A stretch of 64,000 nt of DNA from a virus (IMGVR_UViG_3300036987_000310:192001-256000), one strand, 5' to 3'. Positions 23-63,003 are shown, numbered from the stretch's first letter. A program made the numbers and translations. The notes: generated by a model not told the origin, from the letters alone.

Positions 23-670
23 ATGGAGCAAGACCCGAAATTGTGGAAGATTCCAGCAAAAAGCAAAATCACCGTCTTGTCTGCTGATGACGGTTCTGAG
101 GATGAATATAGCGTGTTCACCCCAGTCAAGTCTGACATAGCGTCAGGAATCAGATTCTCCGTGACAGAAAAAATCGGGATGGCGGTGATAAACCCTAGTG
201 TCGCCAAAATGATGCAGCGCGAGTCGATGAATGTTTGTGCAACGCTCGGCAAATCGGGATGGAGTCTAAAAGCCAACATCCACGAAACCGGGCGTTCTCC
301 AGCCTACGCATCCATATCTCTTGAAACGGGCGACTTCAGCACTCACGTCATGAATGTTACGTCAAGCCTGAACTTGCCGATTCTGAATTCACTGCCGATT
401 CTAAATTTGCCAATTCTTGAAAAGCGCGTTGACTCTGAGACAAGCGGCATGTTTCAACTCGTGGAAGCCAGCAACGTCGACAGTGTTAAGGTTTTTGCTC
501 TGCTCGTGATGGAAAAAGCTGAAAACGCCTGCAGCCCCGCTTGTGGAAACATGCTTCCGTCGCAAAGATCAAAAATTAAACATCTTCCCCCTCTGGAGTG
601 GGAAGGATGGTCTTTATTCTTGAACGATGTGTCAAGAGCGATCGAGGTGTTTGACGTGATGATTCGGTAA
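23..670 (+). CDS. hypothetical protein with shared C-terminal tag
   Basis: 215-aa ORF ending IEVFDVMIR*. Confidence 0.65.
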   Translation: MEQDPKLWKIPAKSKITVLSADDGSEDEYSVFTPVKSDIASGIRFSVTEKIGMAVINPSVAKMMQRESMNVCATLGKSGWSLKANIHETGRSPAYASISLETGDFSTHVMNVTSSLNLPILNSLPILNLPILEKRVDSETSGMFQLVEASNVDSVKVFALLVMEKAENACSPACGNMLPSQRSKIKHLPPLEWEGWSLFLNDVSRAIEVFDVMIR

Positions 671-678
671 GCGTCGGC

Positions 679-1179
679 TTAACTGAGCTGGACAGCCTTG
701 ACTTTGTTCAGCCTATCTCGGTTTTTCTGAATGGTCTTTGACACTTCGTCGCCGTTTTTTCTCCACCACTCCGACGATTTCAGCTTCTGGCTGAGAGTCC
801 TTACCATGAGCGGCCGGAAGTCTTCCAATCTGAATATGTTCTCCATCACTTTGGAGAAGTGGTTTGAAAAGTGTTCCATGGCTTTTCCGGAAAGATTTTC
901 GTCTTTTCCCCCGAAAAGCTCTTCAAATTTTCCAGATCCGGCAAAATCCTTGAACTTTTCCATCAAGTCCGTTTGTTTAAGAATCTCGTCGCCCAACTGG
1001 TGGTCATGAAGAGTTGTGTAGCTGTCGGCAAAGTTCATCTCTTGGGCGTATTCGTCCATGTCGACGAGATGCATAAACTCCTCCAGCATTTTTCTGGCGA
1101 TGTCTGTTGCCATGCTGATTGCGTCCAATCGCGTCTGAATTTGAGAAACGAGCATGCTACGGTATTTCTCACGTCTCAT
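679..1179 (-). CDS. hypothetical helical protein with C-terminal tag
   Basis: 166 aa, ends KVKAVQLS*. Confidence 0.7.
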   Translation of the reverse strand: MRREKYRSMLVSQIQTRLDAISMATDIARKMLEEFMHLVDMDEYAQEMNFADSYTTLHDHQLGDEILKQTDLMEKFKDFAGSGKFEELFGGKDENLSGKAMEHFSNHFSKVMENIFRLEDFRPLMVRTLSQKLKSSEWWRKNGDEVSKTIQKNRDRLNKVKAVQLS

Positions 1180-1284
1180 TGAGCCTCAATTATGCACACG
1201 CAAGCTTGATCCACCACAAAAGGGATGGTTCCCTCGGGGCATGGTTTACCCCCGCACATTGAGTGCTGTCGACACCCGGAGAAA

Positions 1285-1749
1285 CTAAGAACAAGAACGA
1301 TTGCCCCCAGAGTCATTGCCTTCATGCTCTATTGTTACAACGAACTCGCGCGATCCGCCAGGAAGACGCTTGTCGTGAAATTCGATCCTCCCGTTGTCGA
1401 TGGAAATGTTGTCGTTTTGCAATGAAGCGTCAATGCCCAAGAGTTCCAAACACCGAATCAATGCATGGTCCGGATGGACTCCAGAGCGGTGGCCGTCTGT
1501 GCACCACATGAACTGTTGCGTCTCTGGGTAGACGTCCAAAAATTGAAGAAGCGAATCGTTCACCTTCAGGCAGACGCCGACACCCACGCGAGGAAAACCA
1601 ACTTTCCATGTCAAGCCGTACGGAATCAACATGAACTGGACGCAGGTTTTAGTCCAGTCGTCGAGCGACTCTAGCGGAGCCTCTTCAAAACGAATTTGAC
1701 CAAGCTGGACCAAGCGCTCAAACTCTTCGGAAATTTCAAGAATGTTCAT
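1285..1749 (-). CDS. hypothetical protein
   Basis: 154-aa ORF abutting the upstream gene. Confidence 0.6.
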   Translation of the reverse strand: MNILEISEEFERLVQLGQIRFEEAPLESLDDWTKTCVQFMLIPYGLTWKVGFPRVGVGVCLKVNDSLLQFLDVYPETQQFMWCTDGHRSGVHPDHALIRCLELLGIDASLQNDNISIDNGRIEFHDKRLPGGSREFVVTIEHEGNDSGGNRSCS

Positions 1750-1750
1750 G

Positions 1751-2245
1751 TTAGCTCTCCATCACGTTTCGAATGTCTCTGGCGTTGATTTCAAAAGCGC
1801 CTTGGTGCGCCGTAGATTTCACGTATTTGAAGCGTGAAACAAGTGAGCCAGATTCAAACGGGTCTTCGCTCTCTTCTAGCTTCCCCATCCTTTGGCACGC
1901 CCACACCAAAGAAGCAAGGAAGCATCCAACAACGCAAACTGTCGTCGCTTCAGACGGCAGCATGGACGGCAAGTCATCACTGGAAAAGAACGTGCTGTCT
2001 CTGTCAGCGACAATGATCGCCAACCTTATGTAAGGAACATTCATCAAGAGTTTTTTGGCATTGACCATTTTTCCGTCCGTGATCTCATTAGTTGGAATAT
2101 TCAAAAACTTTTGCATGGTCATTTGCGGCCTTTCTTCGGGGTCGGAACGTAAAGCCAGTGCAATGGGCCGGAGATTCGAAGCCACATGCCTTTGAGGTTT
2201 CCGTAGACGTCCGACCCGCCCCGACGCATCCACCCGAAACGCCAC
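1751..2245 (-). CDS. hypothetical protein with C-terminal tag
   Basis: ends DIRNVMES*; start uncertain. Confidence 0.7.
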   Translation of the reverse strand: MAFRVDASGRVGRLRKPQRHVASNLRPIALALRSDPEERPQMTMQKFLNIPTNEITDGKMVNAKKLLMNVPYIRLAIIVADRDSTFFSSDDLPSMLPSEATTVCVVGCFLASLVWACQRMGKLEESEDPFESGSLVSRFKYVKSTAHQGAFEINARDIRNVMES

Positions 2246-2343
2246 ACAGATTTCATGTCGTCTTTTTTGTCCATCATGACACGCTACGCCAACAACCGGA
2301 AAATTTCCGCGGAAGTTTGAAAAACCACAAAGTAACGTGCGCC

Positions 2344-2547
2344 ATGACCGACCACAAATGGGTCAGAGCCCAGGACAAATGGGCCGCCGAGGACCGAGTG
2401 GAGCTCTGGTGGATTTGCAAAAATTGCAAAGCAAAGGTTTTCGCCAGTTGGAAACCAGATCGAAGATTTCTGAAAACCCGTGGCGGTTTTGCCAAAGTTG
2501 GTAGAAACTGTGAAGAAGAACTAGCGCGAAGAGTTATGGACAGCTAA
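2344..2547 (+). CDS. small Zn-binding protein (HxW...CxxC...C family B) with C-terminal tag
   Basis: MTDHKW...WICKNCK...NCEEELARRVMDS*; start reassigned within ORF 2092..2547. Confidence 0.7.
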   Translation: MTDHKWVRAQDKWAAEDRVELWWICKNCKAKVFASWKPDRRFLKTRGGFAKVGRNCEEELARRVMDS

Positions 2548-2771
2548 GACTCGTGAACCAGAAACAACATCGCTTCCTCTTCAGATATTTCTTTGGAAAA
2601 TAAGAACCCAATTTCTTCCAACCCGTCATGACACAGCTTACAATAGCATATTACATCATGCGATAGATGATAGCCAGCATCGTTTTCCGATATCGTTTGA
2701 ACAAGCCTAAACCGGGAGGCTTTCAGGCCGCAGCCGCGACTGTGGCAAACGACTTCTTCGCGATCGTTCAA
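2544..2771 (-). CDS. small zinc-finger protein (family A) with C-terminal tag
   Basis: CHSRGC...ASRF...CKLCH...ISEEEAMLFLVHES*. Confidence 0.8.
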   Translation of the reverse strand: MNDREEVVCHSRGCGLKASRFRLVQTISENDAGYHLSHDVICYCKLCHDGLEEIGFLFSKEISEEEAMLFLVHES

Positions 2772-4578: not shown

Positions 4579-4815
4579 TTATGGCAACTGAACCAACATG
4601 ACAATGAACAAAGCTTTGGCTTCTTCAGTTTCGATTTCCCGAAGCGGCTTTCTACAGTTTAGGCGAAACAACCGATCGCACTGAGAACAAGATCCTATGA
4701 GCTTCTTCCCATAAACTACGTCGTCAGCGTTCTCCGGAAGATACCAATGCGCAATTCTTATTTCACATCCTTCTCCTCCCCACACACATTCAAAATCAGG
4801 CTTTTCCATTGTCAA
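4579..4815 (-). CDS. small zinc-finger protein (family A) with C-terminal tag
   Basis: C-x6-C...AHWYL...CSQC...EIETEEAKALFIVMLVQLP*. Confidence 0.75.
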   Translation of the reverse strand: MTMEKPDFECVWGGEGCEIRIAHWYLPENADDVVYGKKLIGSCSQCDRLFRLNCRKPLREIETEEAKALFIVMLVQLP

Positions 4816-5057
4816 GGACGTATCCTTTCTGGCCCCTGGTAGCCGCCGGGGTAGGGCGACCAGTATTGGATACGTTTGACTGAAAACCCGAGCTGTCGTA
4901 GCCCCAAGACGCCTTCGTTCGCGATGACCCCCACAAGGTTAATCTCCAAGCCCGCGTCGTCGGACACGTCGAACATCTCCAGGGCCTTCTCTCGATCTAG
5001 CGTGACTTCGAAGACCTGTCTGACGTGCTTGCAACTGAAGTCTACCTGTAGTTTCAC
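4812..5057 (-). CDS. hypothetical protein
   Basis: 81 aa, ATGA-coupled to the next gene. Confidence 0.6.
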   Translation of the reverse strand: MKLQVDFSCKHVRQVFEVTLDREKALEMFDVSDDAGLEINLVGVIANEGVLGLRQLGFSVKRIQYWSPYPGGYQGPERIRP

Positions 5058-5143
5058 CTGGCCTCTTGCAGCAGATTGCTGGTGCTGAATGTCATATAGA
5101 ATCCTTCTTCGTGTTCATACCTGTCCAAATTGCAAACTTTCGC

Positions 5144-5371
5144 TCAACTAGTCATTACCTCGAACACAGTGACCTCTGGGTCGTTGAAGCTTCTGCTACA
5201 GTTTTTGCAGACGCAAAACGGCCGGCCTTTTGGGAAAACTAACCGATGTGAGGCGTTTGTGCCGCAATAAGGACATTCGACGTCACGGCTGGACTCTTGG
5301 CGTCCACCCCCTGGTGAATACCTCGCGAGTGGCGACAAAGACTGAGAGTTGTGGAGACGGGGCGAATTCAT
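5144..5371 (-). CDS. small CxxC/CxxC protein with C-terminal tag
   Basis: CPYC...CKNC, ends TVFEVMTS*. Confidence 0.75.
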   Translation of the reverse strand: MNSPRLHNSQSLSPLARYSPGGGRQESSRDVECPYCGTNASHRLVFPKGRPFCVCKNCSRSFNDPEVTVFEVMTS

Positions 5372-5766
5372 TTCAACGCTTTTCTTGCTGGCGTTGGCCT
5401 ACCGACCTCCACCATCTGGAATCGAACGACCTCCCAATCGTCCGACACTCTCGTTGCAGGGTGGTACCTGTCCCCACGCCCAATCATTTGAAAATGAGAG
5501 CGCACATCGGACAAGGAAAACCAAACTTTCCCCACAGGCAGCATGCGGAGGTCCCATCCGCCCGTGGAGAACAGACCGGTTTTCTTGTCTCTAACCATGA
5601 AGAGCGACAAACCTTCAGGCTCCATGGCCTGTTCGCACAGGTTGAGAATGTCGTCTTCCGATATGCCCTTGGACTCGAGCAGACGTGACAAAACCCGGTT
5701 GAGAGTCAGAACTTGAGAAATCGACATGATCTTCTCGTCCGACATGCGTCTCTTCTTTTTCGTCAT
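5368..5766 (-). CDS. hypothetical protein
   Basis: 132 aa, coupled overlaps on both sides. Confidence 0.65.
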   Translation of the reverse strand: MTKKKRRMSDEKIMSISQVLTLNRVLSRLLESKGISEDDILNLCEQAMEPEGLSLFMVRDKKTGLFSTGGWDLRMLPVGKVWFSLSDVRSHFQMIGRGDRYHPATRVSDDWEVVRFQMVEVGRPTPARKALK

Positions 5767-6212
5767 AAGACGGTGTCTTTCTTTGCAGCTTCCATGAAGT
5801 CGAAGTCGTAAATGTTTCCACAGAGCGAGGTGGAAGAAGGCGAAACATTGCTCAAATGGTCGAGCGTCTCTTTGTCGTCGTAAGAAAACCCGAGTTCCCT
5901 GAGCAACAAGACGCAGTGCGCGGCAGCAAGCATGTGGTGTTCGTCAGGGTCTCCGCGAGGGCCGCCAAGCAATCCGACCACCATCGACTCAATCCGTTTG
6001 CGCACGGACAAAGGCGCTGGCGCTTCGCAAGTGGCAACAAGCCTGGCAACAAGTTCAACCATCAGCTTGTCTTGATCGCGCGCTTCCCAATCTTCGTCAA
6101 GCCATTTGTGCACAAGCTTGATTTGCTTGCGCGAAAGCAGACCCTTTCTTTTCACAAAGTCTTTTAGCGCCATCAAAATCTCCTTCAGCTTCGGCCGAAG
6201 GTTACATTGCAT
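5763..6212 (-). CDS. hypothetical protein
   Basis: 149 aa, ATGA overlap. Confidence 0.65.
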   Translation of the reverse strand: MQCNLRPKLKEILMALKDFVKRKGLLSRKQIKLVHKWLDEDWEARDQDKLMVELVARLVATCEAPAPLSVRKRIESMVVGLLGGPRGDPDEHHMLAAAHCVLLLRELGFSYDDKETLDHLSNVSPSSTSLCGNIYDFDFMEAAKKDTVL

Positions 6213-6218
6213 AGTTGG

Positions 6219-6419
6219 TCAGTCCTCCATGACGGACCTGACGCAGCACAGACTGCAATCTTGAAACACGCTTGAATCTGTAAACGCGGACACCATCCGT
6301 CCACACTCCGGACATGGGTTTCCAACCATGTCTGCATAGTCCCTCTCGTTCATGAAATATTTCGAACGTTTCAACGGGACTTTGTCAATCAACGCGAAAA
6401 TTTCCGCCAATGTTTTCAT
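6219..6419 (-). CDS. small CxxC protein with C-terminal tag
   Basis: MKTLAEIF... start by ATGA overlap; CPEC...CSLCCVRSVMED*. Confidence 0.7.
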   Translation of the reverse strand: MKTLAEIFALIDKVPLKRSKYFMNERDYADMVGNPCPECGRMVSAFTDSSVFQDCSLCCVRSVMED

Positions 6420-6715
6420 GATCGCATGACTTCTTCGACGCAGGAGCATCGTTCAGGAAATTGATTGTCGCAGACGATACAAAAAAACCGAGATTCAAAT
6501 CGGGACTTGTGATCGTAGGCGCGAATCTCGACGACGCCGCCACGCTTGACCGCAGAGACCATGCGAACGGCTTTTCCATGCTTTTCAATTTCTGCCATGA
6601 CGTCGCAAACGTTGGCGGAAAAGTGTTTGCCAGCTTCACGCGGAGCGTGAAAATTGCTGTATAAGGTGCATCCGAGAAAGGCGAAAAACATGCCGAGGGG
6701 AAGACTTTCGGTCAC
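6416..6715 (-). CDS. hypothetical protein with C-terminal tag
   Basis: ends CIVC...CSCVEEVMRS*. Confidence 0.7.
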   Translation of the reverse strand: MTESLPLGMFFAFLGCTLYSNFHAPREAGKHFSANVCDVMAEIEKHGKAVRMVSAVKRGGVVEIRAYDHKSRFESRFFCIVCDNQFPERCSCVEEVMRS

Positions 6716-7020
6716 AAGCTTAGAACCCCTGTCGAATAGGCGCGCAAAAACGCCAACTCCTGACCATCGTCAATGCGCACGATTGCGGCACCAGACGTTA
6801 AGCTGGACGAGTCTAGCGCACGCTTGGCCCCGTTTGGCCCTGAAAAATCAGCAAAGCACTCGACGACGACGCCGTTGGCATCAGACATGAAGTATCGGGC
6901 GCTTTCGAACGGAAGGTTAGCACGAACTCTTTTGGCTAAAGCTTTCAGCGCCAAGCGCCGCTTCTTTAAAGCAGTCGACTCTCGGGGAGGATCGAAAACT
7001 TGTCCTGGCATGTGAACCAT
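6712..7020 (-). CDS. hypothetical protein
   Basis: 102 aa, coupled overlap. Confidence 0.6.
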   Translation of the reverse strand: MVHMPGQVFDPPRESTALKKRRLALKALAKRVRANLPFESARYFMSDANGVVVECFADFSGPNGAKRALDSSSLTSGAAIVRIDDGQELAFLRAYSTGVLSL

Positions 7021-7064
7021 GCAGAAAAGTTACAACGCGCCAAACTCCGCACAAAGCAAAGATT

Positions 7065-7505
7065 TCATTCTCGCATGATCTTGCTGACGAAGTAGAAGCG
7101 TTGTTCTTCAAACATTCGCTTTCGCATGCTGTTCTTTGAACCAGTGCTAACAATTTCCCAACATGACGATGGACCCTGCCACTTGAATGGAACGACGATC
7201 CACTCGGGGGCCCATGCGACGTCGCGATTCAAAAGAACTTCGCGCTTCAAAAGAACGTGCTTCACTTCAGGCGAACCTTTTCTGAAAATCTCGAAGGTTC
7301 GGGCCCCGTCACGAGACACGAGAAGCTCGCCAGGCTCGCCAGGCTCCAATTGAATTGTGCCGTCGCAAATCTTGAGCCAGCAAAAAGGGCAACAGGCCAG
7401 GATTGAGCCTTCAGCAAAGAGCCAGCGAGTTGGCGGCGGACAGGAAACCTCCCCGGACGGATTCCACTCGCAAACGTCCAGGCCCGGCCGCACTTTTTTC
7501 CTCAT
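7065..7505 (-). CDS. hypothetical protein with C-terminal tag
   Basis: ends FYFVSKIMRE*. Confidence 0.7.
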   Translation of the reverse strand: MRKKVRPGLDVCEWNPSGEVSCPPPTRWLFAEGSILACCPFCWLKICDGTIQLEPGEPGELLVSRDGARTFEIFRKGSPEVKHVLLKREVLLNRDVAWAPEWIVVPFKWQGPSSCWEIVSTGSKNSMRKRMFEEQRFYFVSKIMRE

Positions 7506-11666: not shown

Positions 11667-11873
11667 TCAGCTTTCGTGCACGGACTGCAAAAGCTCTTTT
11701 TCAAGAAACTTGAGGCCAGCTTCGAAAGAAATTTTTTCGCCCTTCCACCCTGAAGAGCACTCGGCGCACCTGGGCTCGAAGAAGCCTGAGCGGCGCTTGA
11801 CAAAGCAAACAGCCGAAACCTGCCTCGAGCGCGTCCTCAAGCACCAGTCGCACAGGACGCGCTTTTCAAACAT
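11667..11873 (-). CDS. small zinc-finger protein (family A) with C-terminal tag
   Basis: CDWC...CAEC...KISFEAG...LLQSVHES*; start reassigned. Confidence 0.75.
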   Translation of the reverse strand: MFEKRVLCDWCLRTRSRQVSAVCFVKRRSGFFEPRCAECSSGWKGEKISFEAGLKFLEKELLQSVHES

Positions 11874-12066: not shown

Positions 12067-12076
12067 TGCAGCCTCC

Positions 12077-12316: not shown

Positions 12317-12317
12317 T

Positions 12318-49663: not shown

Positions 49664-49683
49664 CAGACTGTGGAGGTGAAAGA

Positions 49684-50417: not shown

Positions 50418-50432
50418 GGCTGCATCATACGA

Positions 50433-51739: not shown

Positions 51740-51754
51740 GAGGAGAGTGACAAA

Positions 51755-52021
51755 ATGGATTCATATCAAGTGGTGACTTTCCTAGATTGGGATGTGTCTG
51801 TGGTGGAGCACACCGACCCGGTGCAAGCAGTCAACATGGCCATCGATGCCACTTTCCCAGGAGACCAAACTCGGGCCGAGTACTTCATGGCTGACCCTCA
51901 CGAGTGGGAAGCTGGGGAAGAGAACCTCATGGCCATCGGTCCGACGGACTTCGCGTTGTTGATCATCGTAGGTGAAGTTAACCCATACCCATATCCGTTG
52001 GGAATCATCCGAAAAAAGTGA
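51755..52021 (+). CDS. hypothetical protein
   Basis: GAGGAG SD. Confidence 0.65.
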   Translation: MDSYQVVTFLDWDVSVVEHTDPVQAVNMAIDATFPGDQTRAEYFMADPHEWEAGEENLMAIGPTDFALLIIVGEVNPYPYPLGIIRKK

Positions 52022-52027
52022 CGGCAG

Positions 52028-52095
52028 ATGAGCACAAAATGCGCTGTTTGCACCACTCGTGAAGAGTAGCTTGTGGCAAAATTATGTCGGAGTGA
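52028..52095 (+). pseudogene. decayed family-A zinc finger/tag remnant
   Basis: MSTKCAVC-TTREE*LVAK then, after a one-base frameshift, IMSE*. Confidence 0.55.
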
Positions 52096-52101
52096 GGCAG
52101 T

Positions 52102-52518
52102 ATGAAGTCGTCACAGTCGTCCTCAATAAGCCCATACCAAGCTCAGGTTTTGGTTCTTCTGGACTGGTGGGTGGAGTCCAAGCGCGACAGGATTCTTGAC
52201 ATGCTGAAAGACGCTGACCCTGATGGAGTCAACGGAACGACAATTGAAGCCGTAGGCCTCTGCCTCATGAGACTCTGGGACTGGGAAACAGAATTCTTTC
52301 AAGATGTCCAAAACAATGACTTGGCGCTCTTGATTTGGACCCGTTACTCCCCCTGGTGGCTTTCAACCGGACACATGGACAATCGGCATCTCGACTGGGA
52401 GGTTGCCGGCCGAATCGGTGCAATCGCCAAGGGCCAGGGTTGGATTGAAAAACATCGCAAGGCGCTCGAACGCGCCGGCAGACGATTGCGCGCCGTAAAG
52501 AAAATCCAGGAGGCGTGA
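52102..52518 (+). CDS. hypothetical protein with C-terminal tag
   Basis: ends RAVKKIQEA*. Confidence 0.75.
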   Translation: MKSSQSSSISPYQAQVLVLLDWWVESKRDRILDMLKDADPDGVNGTTIEAVGLCLMRLWDWETEFFQDVQNNDLALLIWTRYSPWWLSTGHMDNRHLDWEVAGRIGAIAKGQGWIEKHRKALERAGRRLRAVKKIQEA

Positions 52519-52526
52519 GGCCAGTC

Positions 52527-52551
52527 GGAACTGCGCGAATTCGCCGCGTAT
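52527..52551 (+). promoter_or_regulatory. promoter-like motif GGAACT-N13-GCGTAT
   Basis: upstream of 52602. Confidence 0.7.
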
Positions 52552-52601
52552 CGGTCCGTGGGGTGGACCGGCTAAAATGGCCACCCTGCTAGTGCAAACA
52601 C

Positions 52602-52799
52602 ATGTCTGATCTGTGCTCATGGTGCCAACGCAGGCTGGCGACCCGCTGGACTTTCTGGACCCAGAAGCCAGACGGGTCTGGGCAGACGTATCTGTACTGC
52701 GCCTGCGACGACTGCTGGAAAAATCTGGCGAACAATCAGTATGAAGAGCACGAAGTGAGTCGCGACGAGTGGCTCGTTGCGAAAACTCAGGCAACGTGA
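52602..52799 (+). CDS. small zinc-finger protein (family A) with C-terminal tag
   Basis: CSWC..RLATRW...CACDDCW...EVSRDEWLVAKTQAT*. Confidence 0.8.
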   Translation: MSDLCSWCQRRLATRWTFWTQKPDGSGQTYLYCACDDCWKNLANNQYEEHEVSRDEWLVAKTQAT

Positions 52800-52826
52800 G
52801 GCTCCACAAACACGAGGACGCAGCAC

Positions 52827-53324
52827 ATGATCAAGACGAAGGTTTTTGTCGTGGCCAGAATCGAGGGGTGGCAGAACAGTCTTGCCGAACGGATCGCCAC
52901 AACGCTCGGCTTGCCTCCAGGCAGCGTGCAAGTGAAATTGCGCCGCGGAACAATCGAGGCTCGGGTGGAAGCCCGAGCGATGAAGCCCGAATCGAAATTC
53001 GCAACCGAAGCGGTGAAGCTAATCCTCTTTCTGACAGAGAACCACTGGCCGTCTCGTTGCCCGCCCGAGGTCATTCTGCGCGGCCCTTGGCAGACATCCC
53101 TTTGCTCCCTACACAGTTGGCAAGAAACGAGGGCGAGGGAAAGGGCTTCCTTCGTCGAGAGAAATTACAACCCAGACAAAATCCGCAAAATCGTTCGAGA
53201 CAAATCGTCTCCGATCCGAAGCAAGCTTGCCTCGGCTGCGAAGCACTTGTCAGACGCCGAATTGCAGGACGTGTTCAGGGAGGCACTAGAAAAATCGAAG
53301 GTGACGGCAAACAATCATTCGTGA
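52827..53324 (+). CDS. hypothetical protein
   Basis: 165 aa, GAGGA SD. Confidence 0.7.
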   Translation: MIKTKVFVVARIEGWQNSLAERIATTLGLPPGSVQVKLRRGTIEARVEARAMKPESKFATEAVKLILFLTENHWPSRCPPEVILRGPWQTSLCSLHSWQETRARERASFVERNYNPDKIRKIVRDKSSPIRSKLASAAKHLSDAELQDVFREALEKSKVTANNHS

Positions 53325-53403
53325 AGAGTGGCTTGTGGTAAAACCCGCAGTCCGACTGGGCCATCAGGATCAAGGTCAAGCCGCAGCTCATCTGAAGCCC
53401 ACC

Positions 53404-53428
53404 AAAGATCGCGCACAGCTGCGCGTAT
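53404..53428 (+). promoter_or_regulatory. promoter-like motif AAAGAT-N13-GCGTAT
   Basis: upstream of 53450, GGAGGTGA. Confidence 0.65.
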
Positions 53429-53449
53429 TCCCCGATCGGAGGTGACTGC

Positions 53450-53971
53450 ATGCTCGACTGCACGATAACAGTTCCCGGCGGAGGCAGCGGCCAGGGGTGC
53501 CTGAAGGAGAACAAGATGGAGAAAGTGACGCTCAAAAAATACTACTCCTGGACGGTCAGTGTGGAGATCGAGGCAGACCACGTGGACCTCGACATCTTCT
53601 TCAAGAAGAACGGGGTCCAGGTTATGTATAACCAGTGCTGCTCCAGCTTCATGCTGCAACAGTGGGACGAAAAGAAGGCCTGGGCCATCTGCCGCACCAT
53701 GCTGGACAAAGCGGTCGACCCGGATCCGCCCAGGAGCTACACGGAGGACGCGAAGAAGCGCAAGAGGGTGCTTCAACGCATGCTCCGAGACGCCAGCTCC
53801 GGGCCGTCCGGCCCTCTGTTCGATCTGATCCGCCAAGCCTGGGATGAGTGGCAGCAACAGCAAAAGCGGGCTCAGACCGAGCAGTTGCGGCAAGTCGTGC
53901 GGCACTTGTCGCCTGATGAGGTGGAAGTCGCAGTCGCCGAAGCTCAGGTGGCAGATGTCCATAGCCGATAG
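53450..53971 (+). CDS. hypothetical protein with C-terminal tag
   Basis: ends AQVADVHSR* (TAG). Confidence 0.75.
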   Translation: MLDCTITVPGGGSGQGCLKENKMEKVTLKKYYSWTVSVEIEADHVDLDIFFKKNGVQVMYNQCCSSFMLQQWDEKKAWAICRTMLDKAVDPDPPRSYTEDAKKRKRVLQRMLRDASSGPSGPLFDLIRQAWDEWQQQQKRAQTEQLRQVVRHLSPDEVEVAVAEAQVADVHSR

Positions 53972-54037
53972 CCAAAGGATGAAGAGCACGAAGTGAGTCG
54001 CAACGAGCCACTCGTCGCGAAAACTCAGGCAACGTGA
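53972..54037 (+). pseudogene. orphan second tag in frame after the amber stop
   Basis: PKDEEHEVSRNEPLVAKTQAT*; 55/60 nt identical to 52741-52800. Confidence 0.7.
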
Positions 54038-54053
54038 GTCGGATGAGGTGCAA

Positions 54054-54437
54054 ATGTCAACGTTCATCCGTTTCCCCGAAATTGATCAAGTCAAGTTTCA
54101 GACGAGGCCGGAGGAAGAGGATTACCCTCCGGACTTCGACGACCCGGAGATGAACCGCTCCATTCAGGAGAAGGTTCAAAGCGGCAACGAATGGGCCTGG
54201 TGCACAATCGTCGTGAGCGCCGTGTGGAACGGGTTTGTCGGGGAGGCCCGTCTTGGCGGGTGTTCTTACGAATCTGAGGAAAACTTCCTCGAGGACTATG
54301 CCCAACACGACTGGATGATGTGCGACGCCTACAACGATCTGTTGGGAGCTTTGGAGAAGACGGCGAAGAGTTTGGAGCCGCTCATGACGCGCGAGTCAGT
54401 TAACGAGTGGCTCGTTTCTCAAGTTCAAGAAATGTGA
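54054..54437 (+). CDS. hypothetical protein, paralog of 49121..49441, with C-terminal tag
   Basis: ends NEWLVSQVQEM*. Confidence 0.8.
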   Translation: MSTFIRFPEIDQVKFQTRPEEEDYPPDFDDPEMNRSIQEKVQSGNEWAWCTIVVSAVWNGFVGEARLGGCSYESEENFLEDYAQHDWMMCDAYNDLLGALEKTAKSLEPLMTRESVNEWLVSQVQEM

Positions 54438-58862: not shown

Positions 58863-59135
58863 GTGTTCGCGATGAACATTCAAGACGAAGCGCAAGCGAT
58901 TTTCGACAAATGGATGGACGGCGACTGCGCCACAGCCCTTCTTGCTCTTGAAAAGCATGGGGGGCTTCTTGGCCATGCGATCTGCGCCCAGCTTGTGCTG
59001 CTCATAATCGATGCGGACGAGTCGAACCGCACAAGGGGTTTAACTCGCATTAGCCTCCCCAACTTCATAGAAATGATTGAAGAAGCGGCGTTTGACCGCC
59101 GCATCCTAGAAGTCGGGGAGACCATGGAGAGGTAG
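58863..59135 (+). CDS. hypothetical protein
   Basis: 90-aa ORF in operon. Confidence 0.55.
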   Translation: MFAMNIQDEAQAIFDKWMDGDCATALLALEKHGGLLGHAICAQLVLLIIDADESNRTRGLTRISLPNFIEMIEEAAFDRRILEVGETMER

Positions 59136-59155
59136 TTAGACCTGCAAAGGTCGGT

Positions 59156-59180
59156 GCAGATCGCGCTCGTCCCCGCGTAT
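59156..59180 (+). promoter_or_regulatory. promoter-like motif GCAGAT-N13-GCGTAT
   Basis: upstream of 59200, GGAGGTGA. Confidence 0.7.
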
Positions 59181-59199
59181 CGAGCGGGGAGGTGACGAG

Positions 59200-59394
59200 A
59201 TGGGAAAAGTTTGGAATATCGTGGGGCCAGAAGGCGCTCTCTCTGACAAGGAGACCCGGCAGGCGATCAAGCAGCTCAGGCAGCTTCGGGCCGAACGCTT
59301 CATCTTGTTGGAGAGCAAGAAGGAGGATTACAACGAAGCAGTGGCGCTCAACGCGCTGTTCGGTCCGCCACCTAAGCCCGAGCAGCGGAGGTAG
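59200..59394 (+). CDS. small coiled-coil protein
   Basis: promoter plus SD. Confidence 0.7.
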   Translation: MGKVWNIVGPEGALSDKETRQAIKQLRQLRAERFILLESKKEDYNEAVALNALFGPPPKPEQRR

Positions 59395-59395
59395 C

Positions 59396-59785
59396 ATGAA
59401 GCTTTCAGAAATGACGCCAAAACAACTCCGCAAAAAGCGAGATCGAATTGACAAGCTTCTCGTTGAGAAAAGCTCAGTCAAGGTAATCCGATTCAAGTTC
59501 GACTCAGGCGACGACCACACCGTCGGGGCCTTTGAGCTGGAGGCTGACACGCCGCTCGGTCGGCTGGTGGGTAGCGGCACCGTCAACGGCGATTTTGGCG
59601 AAGAGGACTGGGAGCTGAACGGCCAAGAGCTCGTCGAGTGTCCCGCCTTGGGCTTGCCTCAAGCGAATGAGGCCAGCGGCGCGTATTTCGAGGAGCGTTC
59701 AAAAATTTTGCTTGTTGAGGCGCTCGAACAATGGTGTGAAGAGGCGCGGACCCTGCTTGCAAAAGGACGCCGCCTCACCAAGTGA
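59396..59785 (+). CDS. MKLSEMT-family protein
   Basis: MKLSEMTPKQLRKKRDRIDKLL. Confidence 0.75.
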   Translation: MKLSEMTPKQLRKKRDRIDKLLVEKSSVKVIRFKFDSGDDHTVGAFELEADTPLGRLVGSGTVNGDFGEEDWELNGQELVECPALGLPQANEASGAYFEERSKILLVEALEQWCEEARTLLAKGRRLTK

Positions 59786-59805
59786 CTCGGCCCTAGGGGT
59801 GACCA

Positions 59806-60066
59806 ATGGCGTGCACATGGTGCAAATCGAACGATCATCTGGGCATCGAATGCCCGCAACGAAACGCGACCCCACGGACCGAGTCGCCGCCGCACCCAGA
59901 CTCGCGTGCCGTGGCCCAAGCCATCTTAGACCAGTTGTTCTCGGAGTTCGACGGCGAGTTCAGCATCCGCCTCGAGGACGACACGGACCATAAGGTGGAG
60001 ATCAAGTCGCACTGCCTGGTTGCGGCGGGCTACAGATTCCGCTTGGAGTATGGGCCAGATGACTAA
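59806..60066 (+). CDS. N-terminal zinc-knuckle-like protein
   Basis: CTWC...HLGIEC (CxxC-x4-H-x4-C). Confidence 0.6.
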   Translation: MACTWCKSNDHLGIECPQRNATPRTESPPHPDSRAVAQAILDQLFSEFDGEFSIRLEDDTDHKVEIKSHCLVAAGYRFRLEYGPDD

Positions 60067-60083
60067 CCGCCCCAAAGCATGTT

Positions 60084-60108
60084 GGAACTTGGCGCGGTTC
60101 GCACGTAT
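60084..60108 (+). promoter_or_regulatory. promoter-like motif GGAACT-N13-ACGTAT
   Basis: upstream of 60127. Confidence 0.65.
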
Positions 60109-60126
60109 TGGCGAGTGGAGGTTCCC

Positions 60127-60342
60127 ATGGCCCATTCGATCGATCTTCCCGAACTGAATAGCAACTCTGCGGCAGACGAAGTGGCTTCCGCTGTGGAGCT
60201 GATGCTCAAGGGCGTCGTGCAAGACAGCGGCGACGCTTGGCTGGACGAGGATTTCACCTGGCAGCTCCGCGTCGTCGACGGGGAGCTGATCGCCGAGTCT
60301 TCCGATGGCAAGCGGTACCGCATCGAGGTGAAAGCCCGCTGA
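60127..60342 (+). CDS. small acidic protein
   Basis: GGAGGT SD. Confidence 0.65.
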   Translation: MAHSIDLPELNSNSAADEVASAVELMLKGVVQDSGDAWLDEDFTWQLRVVDGELIAESSDGKRYRIEVKAR

Positions 60343-60620
60343 TGCGCAGTCGGCAAAAGCGCTGGGAGAAGCGCCGCCTCCGCAAAGAGGTGCGTCGGGC
60401 CGAAAACGCCCAATTGCAGGAAAGGTCCTGCGCGCTGAGCCTCTTTTGCGACGAGTGCGGCGCCTTGGCAGTCCAGTTCATGCTGGCTGACGAGGGCTTT
60501 CGCCGAAAAGCCCTCGCGCGTTGCCCCCGGCACAGGCTGGTTCCGGGAGGCCACATGTTCGGCACGGTTGAGAAGATCGATGGTGAAGAGTTTTTGGCTT
60601 TCAAGGTGCAAGAGTCATGA
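60342..60620 (+). CDS. small zinc-finger protein (family A) with C-terminal tag
   Basis: CDECGALAVQF...RCPRH...IDGEEFLAFKVQES*. Confidence 0.8.
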   Translation: MRSRQKRWEKRRLRKEVRRAENAQLQERSCALSLFCDECGALAVQFMLADEGFRRKALARCPRHRLVPGGHMFGTVEKIDGEEFLAFKVQES

Positions 60621-60823
60621 AGTGCAAATACGGATGCGGGTGCCAGAAAGAAGCCACCCGCTTCGCCCGAGTTAAAAACTCAGACTCGATGGTCATCCGG
60701 TGCGAAGAGCATTGGGAAAACTTCAAGCAGCACTTGGTCGGCGCTGGCCCGCAGAAAAAGAGCGTCGAGATTGAAGCTTTGACCGAAGACGAAGCTGTAA
60801 TTTTTCAAATTCAAAGAGACTAA
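60617..60823 (+). CDS. small zinc-finger protein (family A) with C-terminal tag
   Basis: CGCQKEATRF...RCEEH...LTEDEAVIFQIQRD*. Confidence 0.8.
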   Translation: MKCKYGCGCQKEATRFARVKNSDSMVIRCEEHWENFKQHLVGAGPQKKSVEIEALTEDEAVIFQIQRD

Positions 60824-60860
60824 GAGCCCCTTGCGCGCGTTGTCGACCGGAGCAGGCGAG

Positions 60861-60998
60861 ATGTTCACAATCAAAATTCCACGCAAGAGACCCCGCAACG
60901 CGCTGTTTTTGGCACAGGCCATGGGCTTGGCTCTCCGTCCCAGGCGGCTTGTCAAAAACAGCAAGCGCGACAAGTCTTGGAAAAAGGAGCAATGGTGA
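60861..60998 (+). CDS. 45-aa basic peptide
   Basis: hand-translated MFTIKIPRKRPRN...KKEQW*. Confidence 0.5.
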   Translation: MFTIKIPRKRPRNALFLAQAMGLALRPRRLVKNSKRDKSWKKEQW

Positions 60999-61153
60999 TG
61001 CACTTCTGCGGCAATCCTTTCCACGACGTTCCCCTGTACATCGTGTTGGCGCTGCCGTTTCTCGCGCCAATCTGGATCTGGCTTCGAGCCCGGTTTGGCC
61101 GTCAAGGGTGCGACTGCGGGCACGACCACGACAACGGGGAGAAGCATCCATGA
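60998..61153 (+). CDS. 51-aa membrane peptide with C/H-rich tail
   Basis: hand-translated; AAGGAG SD; coupled on both sides. Confidence 0.55.
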   Translation: MHFCGNPFHDVPLYIVLALPFLAPIWIWLRARFGRQGCDCGHDHDNGEKHP

Positions 61154-61359
61154 AATGCGACGCCATCATATCCATGTCCGGGCCGCTTGACGATGAAGTC
61201 GAGCGCTGCGGCTGCGGCTGCCGCGCCGTCCAGTTCATCTTGTTTAGCCAGGGCAAACTGTCCTGCCGATGCGAGGAGCATCAACTGCAGACGCAGTTCA
61301 AGGACGTGCGACGCCTCACTGAGGAGGAAGCCCTAGTTCATTCGACGATGGACGAATGA
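61150..61359 (+). CDS. small zinc-finger protein (family A) with C-terminal tag
   Basis: CGCGCRAVQF...RCEEH...LTEEEALVHSTMDE*. Confidence 0.8.
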   Translation: MKCDAIISMSGPLDDEVERCGCGCRAVQFILFSQGKLSCRCEEHQLQTQFKDVRRLTEEEALVHSTMDE

Positions 61360-61676
61360 AGGCTGTGAGAACCCGACCGCCGAAAATCCGGTTTCCGCCT
61401 GGAACGTTCGTCCGCTTGTGGGATGAGCCGGACCGCTTGTGGGAGGTGGTTTGGCTGTACCGGATGCGAGAAGAGCCAAACGTTTGGCTCCACGTGTTGA
61501 AAGTCGCGACACATTTCGAGACCAGTATCGCGCGAGGCGAGGCCCGGATAATCTGGAGCCCGGTTGTTGGACTTCACAACACGGGCATAGACCCATGGTC
61601 GTACAGCCGAATCGTGTCTACGCCGAACATGATTCGGCTAGCTGAGATCGCCATTGACGACATCATGGAGTCTTGA
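61356..61676 (+). CDS. hypothetical protein with C-terminal tag
   Basis: ends IAIDDIMES*. Confidence 0.75.
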   Translation: MKAVRTRPPKIRFPPGTFVRLWDEPDRLWEVVWLYRMREEPNVWLHVLKVATHFETSIARGEARIIWSPVVGLHNTGIDPWSYSRIVSTPNMIRLAEIAIDDIMES

Positions 61677-62191
61677 GACTGTCAGAATCGGGCGCTTTCA
61701 AGCGTCCAAAGTTTATGTGCACGAAAATTCTCCTGAGCCAAATGGAGCAACTGCGATGGGATGGCGTTTCGAGACTCGTTGGCAACGAATGGTCCTTGCA
61801 GTTTTTCACTGACTCCTGGACCAAGGGGCTGGCCGTCACTCTCTACTTGACTGGCTTCAAAAGGGAAAAGAGGAAATGTCTGGTCCTGCGTCAAGGCCAA
61901 CGAGTTAAGCTGATTCGAGAAATGGTTTGCCTCTGGGCGGGGCGCGAGTCTGTCGAGTCGACTGCCTGGATTGGCAAAAGGATCGACAAAGACACGAGAA
62001 TCGGGCCGAATTTGCAGCAGTTCGTCAACGCCATCATGTCCAGGTGGGTCGACGGAAACCAGGTGGCTTGCGACCGGGCCATGGGCCAGCTCAGGCGAGC
62101 TGTGGCGAAGGCTCAAAAAGCAGGGCTGACTGAGGCTGACATGAAGGCTGCCTGGGACGAGGCTTTGCTCGCTCAAATGTTGTTGTCGTGA
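61673..62191 (+). CDS. hypothetical protein with helical-hairpin tail (near-tag ending)
   Basis: ends GLTEADMKAAWDEALLAQMLLS*. Confidence 0.7.
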   Translation: MRLSESGAFKRPKFMCTKILLSQMEQLRWDGVSRLVGNEWSLQFFTDSWTKGLAVTLYLTGFKREKRKCLVLRQGQRVKLIREMVCLWAGRESVESTAWIGKRIDKDTRIGPNLQQFVNAIMSRWVDGNQVACDRAMGQLRRAVAKAQKAGLTEADMKAAWDEALLAQMLLS

Positions 62192-62290
62192 TCAACTAGC
62201 CCATGCCAGAGAGCTGGAAAATACCACTGAAAAGTTGGTATGATTGAGCGATGCAGTCCAGGACTGGCTGATGACTGTTTGAAACGGGTC

Positions 62291-62315
62291 GGAGCTGCCA
62301 GCACGCTGCGCGTAT
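62291..62315 (+). promoter_or_regulatory. promoter-like motif GGAGCT-N13-GCGTAT
   Basis: upstream of 62335. Confidence 0.75.
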
Positions 62316-62334
62316 CGACCGCTGGAGGCACCAC

Positions 62335-62550
62335 ATGAATTTCGTTTGCTCTCAGATCGAGACATGCGGCGGCGCGGATGCCGTGTATGTCTATTTCCGC
62401 CAGGAGCCAACTGAAGCCGACTGGGAAGAAGCGCTAGCTTCTGAGCAGGAAGGAAACCCGGACGAAGCGTGGGAAGACCGAGAAGAAGTTCCCACCGCTT
62501 TGACTGAAGCAATGCAACTCAAGCGATACTACATGGGAAGAGTTGGCTAA
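62335..62550 (+). CDS. small acidic protein, paralog of the 57612 C-terminal half
   Basis: FVCSQIETC...DAVYVYFRQEP...KRYYMG. Confidence 0.75.
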   Translation: MNFVCSQIETCGGADAVYVYFRQEPTEADWEEALASEQEGNPDEAWEDREEVPTALTEAMQLKRYYMGRVG

Positions 62551-63003
62551 ATGGGAAAGCGGGACCCGTTGGCTGCGTGTCCAGATTTTCAGGACTTTGT
62601 TGACTCCATGGACTTCCAACAGTTGACGGAGCTGGAGACGGTTGTGCGCGTCGCAATGGCTCGACAAAAGCGTGACATGGCAAAAGCTGCCGGGTACGCT
62701 TTTAGCGAACGCTTTGCCGATCGCGCACCTGAAAGCTACGTCACAGGCATTTCAGAGCTGCTTTTCAACACTCCAATTGGGTTGTTGAAAGTCGTTGACT
62801 TGGAGTTCGAGGAACCAACAGTTACCTTGAATAACAAGAAGGTTGGAGAAACGGGGGCTATTGGAGCTTTTGAGCTGGATTTGATAGTTCACTTGCATGG
62901 GGCCAGGAACCTAGGGGAAGCTGAGTGGGAAGTTATGCGCTCCGTGCAAAAATACCGCGATGTCATTGACGAATGGACGGTTTCCGCCGTGCAAGAGGAA
63001 TAG
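62551..63003 (+). CDS. hypothetical protein with C-terminal tag
   Basis: ends WTVSAVQEE*. Confidence 0.75.
   Translation: MGKRDPLAACPDFQDFVDSMDFQQLTELETVVRVAMARQKRDMAKAAGYAFSERFADRAPESYVTGISELLFNTPIGLLKVVDLEFEEPTVTLNNKKVGETGAIGAFELDLIVHLHGARNLGEAEWEVMRSVQKYRDVIDEWTVSAVQEE

What the first reader, a model, noticed from the sequence alone, without database searches (positions are those of the whole stretch)
23..63003. A shared C-terminal tag on about 60 unrelated proteins: candidate undescribed docking/targeting system
Seen: by hand count 61 of roughly 145 plausible ORFs, on both strands, end in [VITL]-[MHQ]-x-x-stop. Most also have a hydrophobic residue at -7 and an acidic helix upstream. Examples: DIRNVMES, MLFLVHES, LLQSVHES, LSIQKVMSA, LIKSVQEA, HVKEIMES, LVQETMSS, WIEGVHES, TVKKVQDG, LLDEVHES, LAFKVQES, AIDDIMES. 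A rough background estimate (about 0.25 x 0.08 per gene) predicts only about 3. The signal is at the protein level: Val is GTG/GTT/GTC, terminal Ser is TCN or AGC (11667 GAA AGC; 47813 GAG TCC; 2544 GAG TCT; 1751 GAG AGC), and all three stop codons are used. It is attached to ankyrins, two zinc-finger families, HTH-like proteins and unique domains. It is missing from the ligase, sigma, SET, AAA+, VWA, BRCT and HNH proteins. Known analogies are the T4 gp55/gp33 C-terminal clamp-binding motif, SSB C-tips, Dot/Icm E-block translocation signals, C-degrons and F-box/PRANC adaptor tails; none matches this consensus as far as I recall. Inference: variable binding modules are plugged into one common reader (protease/unfoldase hub, capsid packaging or ejection, phage compartment import, or secretion).
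Basis: partly seen in the sequence, partly recalled or inferred. Interest (0 to 1): 0.96.

Follow-up and report, generated by a model that had tools for sequence, protein, structure and literature searches.

The report
Shared C-terminal address tag, huge phage
About a quarter of the proteins of this 377-kb phage and its uncultured relatives, otherwise unrelated to each other, end in the same short helical peptide; it behaves like an address label for one still unidentified partner and looks most like the peptides that load enzymes into bacterial microcompartments.

Summary
Observation confirmed and extended. The window lies in a 376,674-bp phage genome. 60 ORFs in the window and 123 in the genome end in the motif; 0.5 and 2.6 are expected by chance. 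Consensus: [DE]-E-h-h-[VIL]-x-x-[VI]-[MHQ]-[EDSN]-[SAGTE]-COOH.

The signal is at protein level. Third codon positions are free, nothing is conserved after the stop, and 16 tagged genes are convergent. The motif is locked to the C-terminus. Tagged bodies fall into 83 BLAST-unrelated groups, with ankyrin repeats the only recognised domain.

The tag is clade-wide. One 436-kb relative has at least 89 V-M-[DE]-x-stop ends. One protein family keeps it in about 115 of 120 metagenomic homologues while position -3 toggles M/H/Q/L. The two nearest outgroups, Tunturiibacter phage Tunturi_5 and LR745208, lack it.

New lead: the tag has the register of metabolosome encapsulation peptides. EutC residues 5-16 score like a true tag, and PduP E7/I10/L14 map to -10/-7/-3. 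The phages encode no BMC shell protein.

The best phage-encoded reader candidate is the MoxR-type AAA+ plus HExxH-VWA pair, which co-occurs with the tag.

The scan has noted other, different shared terminal tags in other phages, and this same tag in other windows of this genome.

The parts
23..2771 (.). Five tagged ORFs: 23-670(+), 679-1155(-), 1751-2122(-), 2092-2547(+), 2544-2771(-). Tails: VMIR, VQLS, VMES, VMDS, VHES.
   Evidence: PWM 10.9-15.2 bits. The first two are convergent, so no downstream ribosome-binding site can explain them.
4579..7349 (-). Five tagged small ORFs: 4579-4809, 5144-5371, 6219-6449, 6416-6715, 7065-7349.
   Evidence: PWM 9.8-16.8 bits.
11667..12503 (.). Two weaker tagged ORFs: 11667-12020(-) ending VHES and 12066-12503(+) ending VQET.
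   Evidence: PWM 8.9 and 8.2 bits. Neither was picked by my gene caller.
16420..17913 (-). Three ankyrin-repeat paralogues carrying the tag: 16420-16881, 16891-17262, 17272-17913. All end QKVM[SN][AT].
   Evidence: Pfam Ank E down to 8e-41. PWM 17-19.5 bits. They form a paralogue group of five with 27540-28088 and 29146-29619.
18371..22861 (-). Seven tagged ORFs: 18371-18754, 18994-19284, 19610-20038, 20914-21477, 21582-22109, 22110-22388, 22487-22861.
   Evidence: PWM 10.9-18.1 bits. ORF 21582-22109 has 193 metagenomic homologues that keep the tag. Its AlphaFold2 model shows a beta-rich body, a low-confidence coil and a terminal helix.
25647..26443 (-). Two tagged ORFs, 25647-26081 and 26078-26443, both ending VQAS.
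   Evidence: PWM 15.9 and 13.1 bits.
27540..31041 (-). Five tagged ORFs: 27540-28088 (ankyrin), 29146-29619 (ankyrin), 29630-30193, 30242-30514, 30541-31041.
   Evidence: PWM 11.4-18.3 bits. The orthologue of 30541-31041 in relative G001 keeps the tag.
31608..32351 (+). Tagged 247-aa ORF ending VMGV. It is a paralogue of 47088-47813.
   Evidence: PWM 8.9 bits. The orthologue in G001 ends VMEA.
33111..36156 (-). Four tagged ORFs: 33111-33326, 34895-35116, 35128-35922, 35941-36156.
   Evidence: PWM 14.0-23.1 bits.
37187..38689 (-). Untagged HExxH metallopeptidase plus VWA protein (DUF2201_N + DUF2201). Candidate tag reader.
   Evidence: Pfam 9.6e-24 and 2.5e-10. HEGYH and the DTSGS MIDAS motif are intact. 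It is present in four tag-bearing relatives and absent from two tag-less outgroups.
38977..42068 (-). Seven tagged ORFs lying between the VWA and AAA+ genes: 38977-39543, 39596-39940, 39832-40200, 40095-40472, 40505-41176, 41201-41638, 41721-42068.
   Evidence: PWM 8.0-21.3 bits.
42511..43617 (-). Untagged MoxR-type AAA+ ATPase (AAA_5; N4 gp24-like). Partner of the VWA protein.
   Evidence: Pfam AAA_5 at 8.5e-5. tblastn hits to N4-like ATPases. It has 59-82% identical orthologues in G001, G002, G004 and G005 and none in Tunturi_5 or LR745208.
44698..54437 (+). Thirteen tagged ORFs: 44698-45447, 45508-46128 (weak), 46148-47026, 47088-47813, 48310-48687, 48684-49124, 49121-49441, 49438-49605, 50813-51739, 52150-52518, 52602-52799, 53450-53971, 54048-54437.
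   Evidence: PWM 7.3-18.4 bits. ORF 50813-51739 also has an internal tag at residues 147-158, which suggests a fusion of two tagged genes.
58863..63003 (+). Six tagged ORFs: 58863-59135, 60237-60620, 60617-60823, 60949-61359, 61356-61676, 62551-63003.
   Evidence: PWM 9.0-17.0 bits.

Best explanation
The motif is a portable C-terminal docking peptide, that is, an address tag. It is a two-turn helix followed by two small or acidic residues and the free carboxylate. An N-cap or acidic pair sits at -11/-10 and hydrophobic contacts at -8/-7 and -4, with M/H/Q at -3. In the one family I modelled, the helix hangs on a low-confidence coil behind the folded body.

The tag has been attached to, or kept on, at least 120 mostly small accessory proteins of this phage and hundreds in its relatives. 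This lets one common partner handle them as a group. That much is inferred from the sequence statistics and their conservation.

The mode of binding is inferred by analogy. The tag has the same residue register as metabolosome encapsulation peptides. I therefore expect the -10/-7/-4/-3 face to insert into a hydrophobic groove of an oligomeric partner, or to bundle with like helices.

The phage-encoded partner I consider most likely is the conserved MoxR-type AAA+ ATPase plus HExxH-VWA protein. I give this about 1 chance in 4. Its genes sit among the tagged genes. It could hold, remodel or cleave the tagged proteins through the tag's acidic residue or carboxylate at the VWA metal site. No binding has been shown, and a host protein is equally possible.
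For: Enrichment and strict C-terminal register:
- 123 ORF ends against 2.6 expected.
- Inward shifts of the pattern fall to background.

Protein-level selection:
- Third codon positions are free and nothing is conserved downstream.
- Orthologous tails carry synonymous differences.
- The tag is independent of downstream genes.

Unrelated bodies:
- 83 BLAST components for 91 proteins.
- Ankyrin repeats in five proteins; no Pfam match in the others tested.
- A beta-rich fold with no PDB match in the modelled family.

Conservation:
- Orthologues in three phages end SVQEA, EVMES and SIHES.
- In 120 homologues, -4 is V in 101 and I in 15; -3 is M 51, H 36, L 14, Q 12.

Clade-wide use and absence in outgroups:
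- V-M-[DE]-x-stop gives 89 hits against 2 control in G002, 33 against 1 in G005, and 16 against 1 in G001.
- It gives 0 in Tunturi_5, and 3 in LR745208 that all end in TGG rather than a stop.
- The H/Q variant is enriched in G000, G002 and G004 but not in the outgroups.

Genome-specific -3 preference: chi-square p = 1.3e-4. This fits a co-evolving reader.

Resemblance to encapsulation peptides:
- EutC residues 5-16 score 13.0 bits. That is the best of 12,538 twelve-mers in 48 E. coli proteins, and a score reached by 4e-5 of phage internal 12-mers.
- PduP E7, I10 and L14 are required for encapsulation, and R11 forms a salt bridge (PMC11157265 and PMC12339742). These map to tag positions -10, -7, -3 and -6.

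Structure: AlphaFold2 gives a coil at 156-166 and a helix at 167-174, both at pLDDT 50-60, behind a confident body.

Reader candidate:
- The AAA+/VWA pair is present in G001, G002, G004 and G005, inside or beside the tagged regions. It is also next to tagged genes in two more distant contigs, L125 and L127.
- It is absent from both tag-less outgroups.
- The HExxH and MIDAS motifs are intact.
Against: No partner has been demonstrated.

The co-occurrence of the AAA+/VWA pair with the tag amounts to one clade-level event. Many other clade-specific genes would show the same pattern.

The pair is widespread in phages with no reported tag, such as N4-like phages, Thermus phages and phage G. A more distant phage contig with the pair has 0 of 30 PWM-positive ends, and only about three degenerate tag-like ends.

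The tag-like internal helix of the VWA protein does not co-vary with client tags. L125 has the non-tag-like form yet has 7 tagged genes.

The tag differs from encapsulation peptides in several ways:
- The helix is about 8-10 residues, not 15-20.
- It has a fixed distance to the C-terminus.
- It allows H and Q at the key position.
- EutE's known peptide is not picked up by the matrix.
- A crude hydrophobic-moment test does not separate tagged from untagged tails.

The gene calls are my own, and the PWM was trained on the same termini.
Confidence: 0.6

Rival explanations
1. Timed-removal signal (degron). The tag marks accessory or early proteins for unfolding and proteolysis by a phage or host protease, so that the whole class is cleared or kept at a low level together.
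For: - The tagged genes are small accessory genes lying outside the structural and replication blocks.
- Their upstream signals differ from those of structural genes.
- An HExxH peptidase with an AAA+ partner is encoded among them.
- C-terminal degrons are an established principle (ssrA/ClpXP; my own knowledge).
Against: Known bacterial C-terminal degrons end in non-polar residues. Here the last two residues are acidic or small and polar. No ClpP or Lon search was run. No turnover data exist.
Confidence: 0.15
2. Virion-loading signal. The tag docks proteins onto the inner surface of the procapsid lattice, as cargo peptides do in encapsulins, so that they are injected with the DNA.
For: - The tag resembles peptides that bind grooves between tessellated shell hexamers (PMC11157265).
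- By my own knowledge, encapsulin cargo peptides are C-terminal, and jumbo phage heads carry many proteins.
Against: - A quarter of all genes is far more than any known set of packaged proteins.
- Tagged genes lie in arrays away from the structural module, with different upstream signals.
- No cleavage-site or scaffold link was seen.
Confidence: 0.1
3. Mimic of host microcompartment encapsulation peptides. The tag sends phage proteins to, or onto, a host BMC shell.
For: The EutC encapsulation peptide scores as a true tag, and the PduP key residues share the register.
Against: The host is unknown. Neither this phage nor four relatives encode a BMC-H protein. I see no rationale for sending about 120 different proteins into a metabolic organelle. 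The strict C-terminal register and H/Q at -3 are not features of encapsulation peptides.
Confidence: 0.07
4. No common reader. The tagged genes are one fast-evolving family expanded by tandem duplication, and the C-terminal helix is the only conserved remnant, for example a self-association helix.
For: - The genes form co-directional arrays of small genes.
- There are clear local paralogues: five ankyrin proteins and four pairs.
- In the G002 array, similar sequence extends upstream of the tag.
- Encapsulation-type helices can self-associate into bundles and condensates (PMC12339742).
Against: - There are 83 BLAST-unrelated components.
- Lengths range from about 50 to 315 aa.
- Ankyrin, beta-rich and other bodies occur.
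- One tagged protein shares a domain with untagged proteins.
- A remnant would not be held at an exact distance from the stop in 115 of 120 homologues.
Confidence: 0.12
5. A nucleotide-level or translational signal, such as an embedded ribosome-binding site for the next gene, a termination context, or a recombination linker.
For: Many genes overlap as ATGA, and GGAG can arise from ATG-GAG codons.
Against: - Third codon positions are nearly free.
- M, H and Q codons differ at two bases.
- Nothing is conserved after the stop.
- 16 tagged genes are convergent, and 34 have more than 60 nt to the next called gene.
- Orthologous tails carry synonymous differences.
Confidence: 0.02

Closest known systems
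Encapsulation peptides of catabolic bacterial microcompartments (EutC, PduP, PduD)
   Same: Both are short terminal helices on a linker, attached to unrelated cargo proteins.

The residue register is the same: E, then h-h, then basic, then x, then [VI]-[LM]. EutC residues 5-16 score 13.0 bits with the phage matrix. The PduP residues needed for encapsulation, E7, I10 and L14, map to -10, -7 and -3.

Encapsulation peptides bind a groove between shell hexamers and also bundle with each other.
   Different: - The phages have no BMC shell gene.
- The cargo are not metabolic enzymes.
- The phage helix is about half as long.
- It sits at a fixed two-residue distance from the C-terminus.
- It accepts H and Q at the key position.
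- It occurs on about a quarter of the proteome.
Encapsulin cargo-loading peptides and the T4 capsid-targeting sequence
   Same: A short terminal peptide on unrelated proteins directs them to the inside of an HK97-fold shell. Encapsulin peptides are C-terminal (my own knowledge).
   Different: The sequences differ. The T4 signal is N-terminal and is cleaved. Nothing here links the tag to the capsid or to late genes.
MoxR AAA+ / VWA chaperone pairs (RavA-ViaA, CbbQ-CbbO, NorQ-NorD; peptide capture by VWA proposed in PMC7159879)
   Same: A MoxR-type AAA+ and a VWA protein with an intact metal site are encoded among the tagged genes and co-occur with the tag. VWA domains are proposed to capture a peptide of the client.
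   Different: Known pairs serve one or a few clients, not about 120. The VWA protein here also carries an HExxH peptidase domain. Binding is untested.
Poxvirus ankyrin/PRANC (F-box-like) adaptors and C-terminal docking helices for AAA+ machines (MIM-MIT of ESCRT-III/Vps4; HbYX tails)
   Same: Each has a variable binding module, ankyrin repeats here in five proteins, plus a constant C-terminal element that plugs into one machine. HbYX tails likewise depend on the distance to the free carboxylate (my own knowledge).
   Different: There is no sequence similarity. These are eukaryotic systems. The comparison is by architecture only.

Membership tests
BMC encapsulation peptide | [quoted passage not shown] | tested here: inconclusive
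   It is terminal and helical. AlphaFold2 gives helix 167-174, and helix-breaking residues are depleted from -10 to -3. But the helix is only about 8-10 residues long, and the hydrophobic moment is no higher than in untagged tails.
BMC encapsulation peptide | Separated from the folded domain by a poorly conserved linker | tested here: inconclusive
   In the one family modelled, there is a coil at 156-166 with low pLDDT between body and helix. However, the residues just upstream (YRDRVK) are conserved in that family.
BMC encapsulation peptide | Sequence register of the residues needed for encapsulation (PduP E7, I10, L14) | tested here: met
   Tag positions -10 (E), -7 (V/I/L) and -3 have the same spacing. 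The EutC peptide scores 13.0 bits and is the top hit among 12,538 twelve-mers.
BMC encapsulation peptide | Encoded together with BMC shell proteins (BMC-H, PF00936) | tested here: not met
   No PF00936 match at E <= 1 in this phage or in four relatives. The control genomes gave matches. The host genome is unknown.
MoxR-VWA client | MoxR-type AAA+ and a VWA partner with an intact MIDAS, encoded together with the client | tested here: met
   AAA_5, plus DUF2201_N/DUF2201 with the DTSGS motif. Seven tagged ORFs lie between the two genes.
MoxR-VWA client | Physical capture of the client peptide by the VWA domain | not testable with these tools
   This needs binding assays or complex prediction.
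ssrA-type C-terminal degron | Non-polar last residues recognised by ClpX, FtsH or Tsp | tested here: not met
   Position -2 is E/D/S/N and -1 is S/A/E/G/T.
Clamp-binding or SSB-tip C-terminal motifs | Aromatic or hydrophobic last residues (QLxLF, DDDIPF, T4 LDFLF types) on DNA-handling proteins | tested here: not met
   The tails have no aromatic consensus. The carriers are ankyrin proteins and proteins without known domains, and the ligase and replication proteins are untagged.

The most novel reading that the evidence does not exclude
A clade of huge soil or freshwater phages runs its own protein-sorting system. An encapsulation-peptide-like C-terminal tag gathers about a quarter of the phage proteome into one assembly, which may be a condensate, a proteinaceous compartment, or a client pool around the AAA+/HExxH-VWA machine. 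This would be a virus-encoded organelle-style address code of a scale not described for any phage.
Probability: 0.3. Interest if true: 0.92.

Novelty: new variant of a known kind. Interest (0 to 1): 0.85.

Why it matters
Most genes of huge phages have no known function. Here one simple rule groups about 120 of them in this genome and hundreds in its relatives into a single functional class that can be tested with one experiment, namely finding what binds the tag.

If the partner is found, it would show how a phage organises or disposes of a large set of accessory proteins at once.

The tag is short, portable and resembles microcompartment targeting peptides. It could therefore also serve as a tool for directing proteins to a defined partner.

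Together with the other terminal tags seen in this scan, it suggests that address peptides are a common and overlooked feature of large phage proteomes.

Tried and rejected
- Ribosome-binding-site or other nucleotide-level explanation: rejected.
- A tag-like internal helix in the HExxH-VWA protein (residues 324-335, 13.8 bits, third-best internal hit). It looked like a pseudo-tag. However, it is a conserved family element whose tag-likeness does not track the presence of client tags: L125 has the non-tag-like form yet has 7 tags. I dropped it as evidence.
- A phage-encoded BMC shell: none found.
- Host identification through the phage EF-Tu homologue. The best bacterial hits are only 52-61% identical and scattered over many phyla, so it is uninformative. 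Relatives cannot be drawn for a virus record.
- Whole-record searches of ENA or JGI contigs obtained by the look-up of encoding contigs are not possible. I therefore could not run the necessity test, that is, whether any tag-rich genome lacks the AAA+/VWA pair, beyond three complete relatives.
- Fragmentary relatives G003 and G006-G010 lack the pair but are only 8-64% complete, so they are uninformative.
- A fold search of the modelled tagged protein found no PDB match.
- A strict ECF-like promoter pattern was not enriched: 12 hits against 8 control.
- Literature searches for this tag found nothing.
- megablast of the window against GenBank phages found no match.

Full report
**What the window is.** The window is bases 192,001-256,000 of a single 376,674-bp phage record with terminal repeats and about 51% G+C. 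The portal protein has 67-84% identical relatives on IMG/VR contigs of 240-436 kb. The nearest records in GenBank are an uncultured 485-kb phage (LR745208, 46%), Tunturiibacter phage Tunturi_5 (36%; host an acidobacterium from tundra soil, PMC11924767) and Bacillus phage G (28%). No gene caller was available, so I wrote a three-periodic Markov caller trained on long ORFs. It gives 432 genes.

- 91 of 432 called genes end in [VITL][MHQ]xx, against 8.5 expected from the internal frequency of that pattern. In the window it is 44 of 97.
- Moving the pattern 1-11 residues inward gives 5-25 hits.
- A 12-residue matrix at 6 bits or more finds 60 ORF ends in the window and 123 in the genome. About 0.5 and 2.6 are expected. 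The 16 extra window ORFs are small genes that my conservative caller missed.
- Positions that played no part in the selection are constrained as well. Position -7 is V/I/L in 76 of 91, -10 is E in 33, and -11 is D/E/R.
- With the -3 column removed from the detector, -3 is still M, Q or H in 75 of 80 termini.
- Tagged proteins are small, with a median of about 125 aa and a maximum of about 315. They lie in the accessory part of the genome at 100-280 kb and 360-376 kb, and not in the structural and replication blocks.

**The signal is in the protein, not in the DNA.**
- Third codon positions of the conserved residues carry 0.1-0.2 bit. V uses four codons and S uses both codon families.
- Nothing is conserved after the stop.
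- Six orthologous tails show 21 synonymous differences against 17 identical codons.
- Only 21 of 87 tagged genes have a downstream gene within 15 nt, and 16 are convergent.

**The bodies are mostly unrelated.** After removal of the last 16 residues, the 91 proteins fall into 83 BLAST components at E <= 1e-3. Five are ankyrin-repeat paralogues, and the other large ones tested have no Pfam family. One tagged protein shares a domain with untagged proteins. One 308-aa protein has a second tag in its middle, which suggests a fusion of two tagged genes. Some tandem neighbours are clearly paralogous, especially in relative G002, so 'unrelated' is true of most bodies but not all.

**The tag is a property of a clade.**
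- The strict DNA pattern for V-M-[DE]-x-stop gives 89 hits against 2 control in G002 (436 kb), 33 against 1 in G005, 21 against 2 in this genome, and 16 against 1 in G001.
- Within 18 kb of G002, 38 consecutive small ORFs carry the tag. There the motif extends to [ML]-[ST]-h-[DE]-E-h-h-V-x-x-V-M-E-S.
- Orthologues of window ORF 21582-22109 end SVQEA here, EVMES in G002 and SIHES in G005.
- Among 120 metagenomic homologues of that protein, -4 is V in 101 and I in 15, and -3 is M 51, H 36, L 14, Q 12. All but a few end exactly two residues later.
- The preferred -3 residue differs between genomes: M in G002, H in G004, mixed here (p = 1.3e-4). A more distant contig uses L or I at that position.
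- Tunturi_5 and LR745208 show no enrichment of either the M variant or the H/Q variant.

**Shape.** I modelled ORF 21582-22109 with AlphaFold2 using 99 homologues; mean pLDDT is 82. The model gives a confident beta-rich body, a coil at residues 156-166 and a helix at 167-174, the last two at pLDDT 50-60. This describes a helix that is not packed on the body. Helix-breaking residues are depleted from -10 to -3 and peak at -11 and at the last two positions. The body has no match among solved structures.

**Closest known signal.** The N-terminal targeting peptide of EutC, as printed in PMC3299773, scores 13.0 bits with the phage matrix over residues 5-16. The median of true tags is 14.6. Only 4e-5 of internal phage 12-mers reach that score. 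In a blind scan of 48 E. coli proteins around the eut operon, it is the single best of 12,538 twelve-mers.

The PduP residues required for encapsulation (E7, I10, L14) and its salt-bridge residue R11 have the spacing of tag positions -10, -7, -3 and -6 (PMC11157265, PMC12339742). Encapsulation peptides are terminal helices on linkers that bind a groove between shell hexamers and also bundle into trimers and condensates.

The phage tag is not a member of that family in the strict sense:
- No BMC shell gene is present in five genomes.
- The helix is shorter.
- Its distance to the C-terminus is fixed.
- H and Q are accepted at the key position.
- EutE's peptide is not recognised by the matrix.

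**Who reads it.** This is not settled. The best phage-encoded candidate is the MoxR-type AAA+ (42511-43617) together with the HExxH-VWA protein (37187-38689). Both of its motifs are intact, and seven tagged ORFs lie between the two genes.
- The pair is present in G001, G002, G004 and G005, inside or beside the tagged regions. It also lies next to tagged genes on two more distant contigs: 7 of 30 in L125 and 21 of 43 in L127.
- It is absent from both tag-less outgroups.
- VWA domains are proposed to capture client peptides for their MoxR partner (PMC7159879).
- Against it: this is one clade-level correlation. The pair occurs in many phages without a reported tag. One distant contig with the pair has no clear tags.

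Upstream signals of accessory genes (a strong GGAGGTGA ribosome site and a CGCGTAT element) differ from those of structural genes. This speaks mildly against loading into capsids during assembly.

**Verdict.** This is a real, strongly selected, C-terminus-anchored address tag on about a quarter of the proteome of a clade of huge phages. It works most like a microcompartment encapsulation peptide, and its partner is unknown. I found no description of it in the papers I could search. Earlier notes of this scan saw the same tag in other windows of this genome, and saw different shared terminal tags in other phages.

Noticed in passing
window 45462-45504, 48265-48307, 52526-52568, 62290-62332 (+); 17911-17958, 21475-21522, 38720-38767 and others (-): A repeated promoter-like element sits upstream of many genes in the window. 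It has a GGA(A/G)CT-like box, about 15 nt, then CG(C/A)GTAT(T/C), followed 8-10 nt later by GGAGGTGA and the start codon. The -10-like part plus ribosome site occurs 17 times in the genome against 2 in the control, and 14 of those lie at 200-260 kb. It resembles ECF-type promoters, and a sigma-70-family gene lies at window 2783-3526.
   Followed up: partly
window 50813-51739 (+): This 308-aa protein has a full tag-like motif at residues 147-158 (14.6 bits) as well as one at its end. It looks like a fusion of two formerly separate tagged genes.
   Followed up: no
window 37187-38689 (-), residues 324-335: The HExxH-VWA protein contains an internal helix (VRSALLKKVQDA) that scores 13.8 bits as a tag. 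It is conserved in the closest roughly 80 homologues and replaced by RKAIDVG in others. It did not co-vary with client tags.
   Followed up: yes
L008:1418-2584 (-), genome 141418-142584: The phage encodes a full-length EF-Tu homologue with all three domains (E = 1.8e-51). It is at most 61% identical to any bacterial EF-Tu found.
   Followed up: partly
L007:3407-4843 (-), genome 123407-124843: An RtcB RNA ligase (E = 7e-82) lies in the accessory region. Earlier notes report unusual tRNA-like RNAs about 10 kb upstream.
   Followed up: no
L011:11441-12685 (+), genome 267441-268685: A 414-aa protein ends EVRDGKWG.
   Followed up: no
L009:6001-12437 (-), genome 166001-172437: Three paralogous fibre-like proteins with collagen repeats, one carrying an endosialidase-chaperone (S74) domain, sit inside the accessory region.
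   Followed up: no
genome 174499-174693 (-): A 64-aa ORF has a very strong tag (17.1 bits) twelve residues before its stop. This may be a read-through, a frameshift or a recent loss of the stop codon.
   Followed up: no
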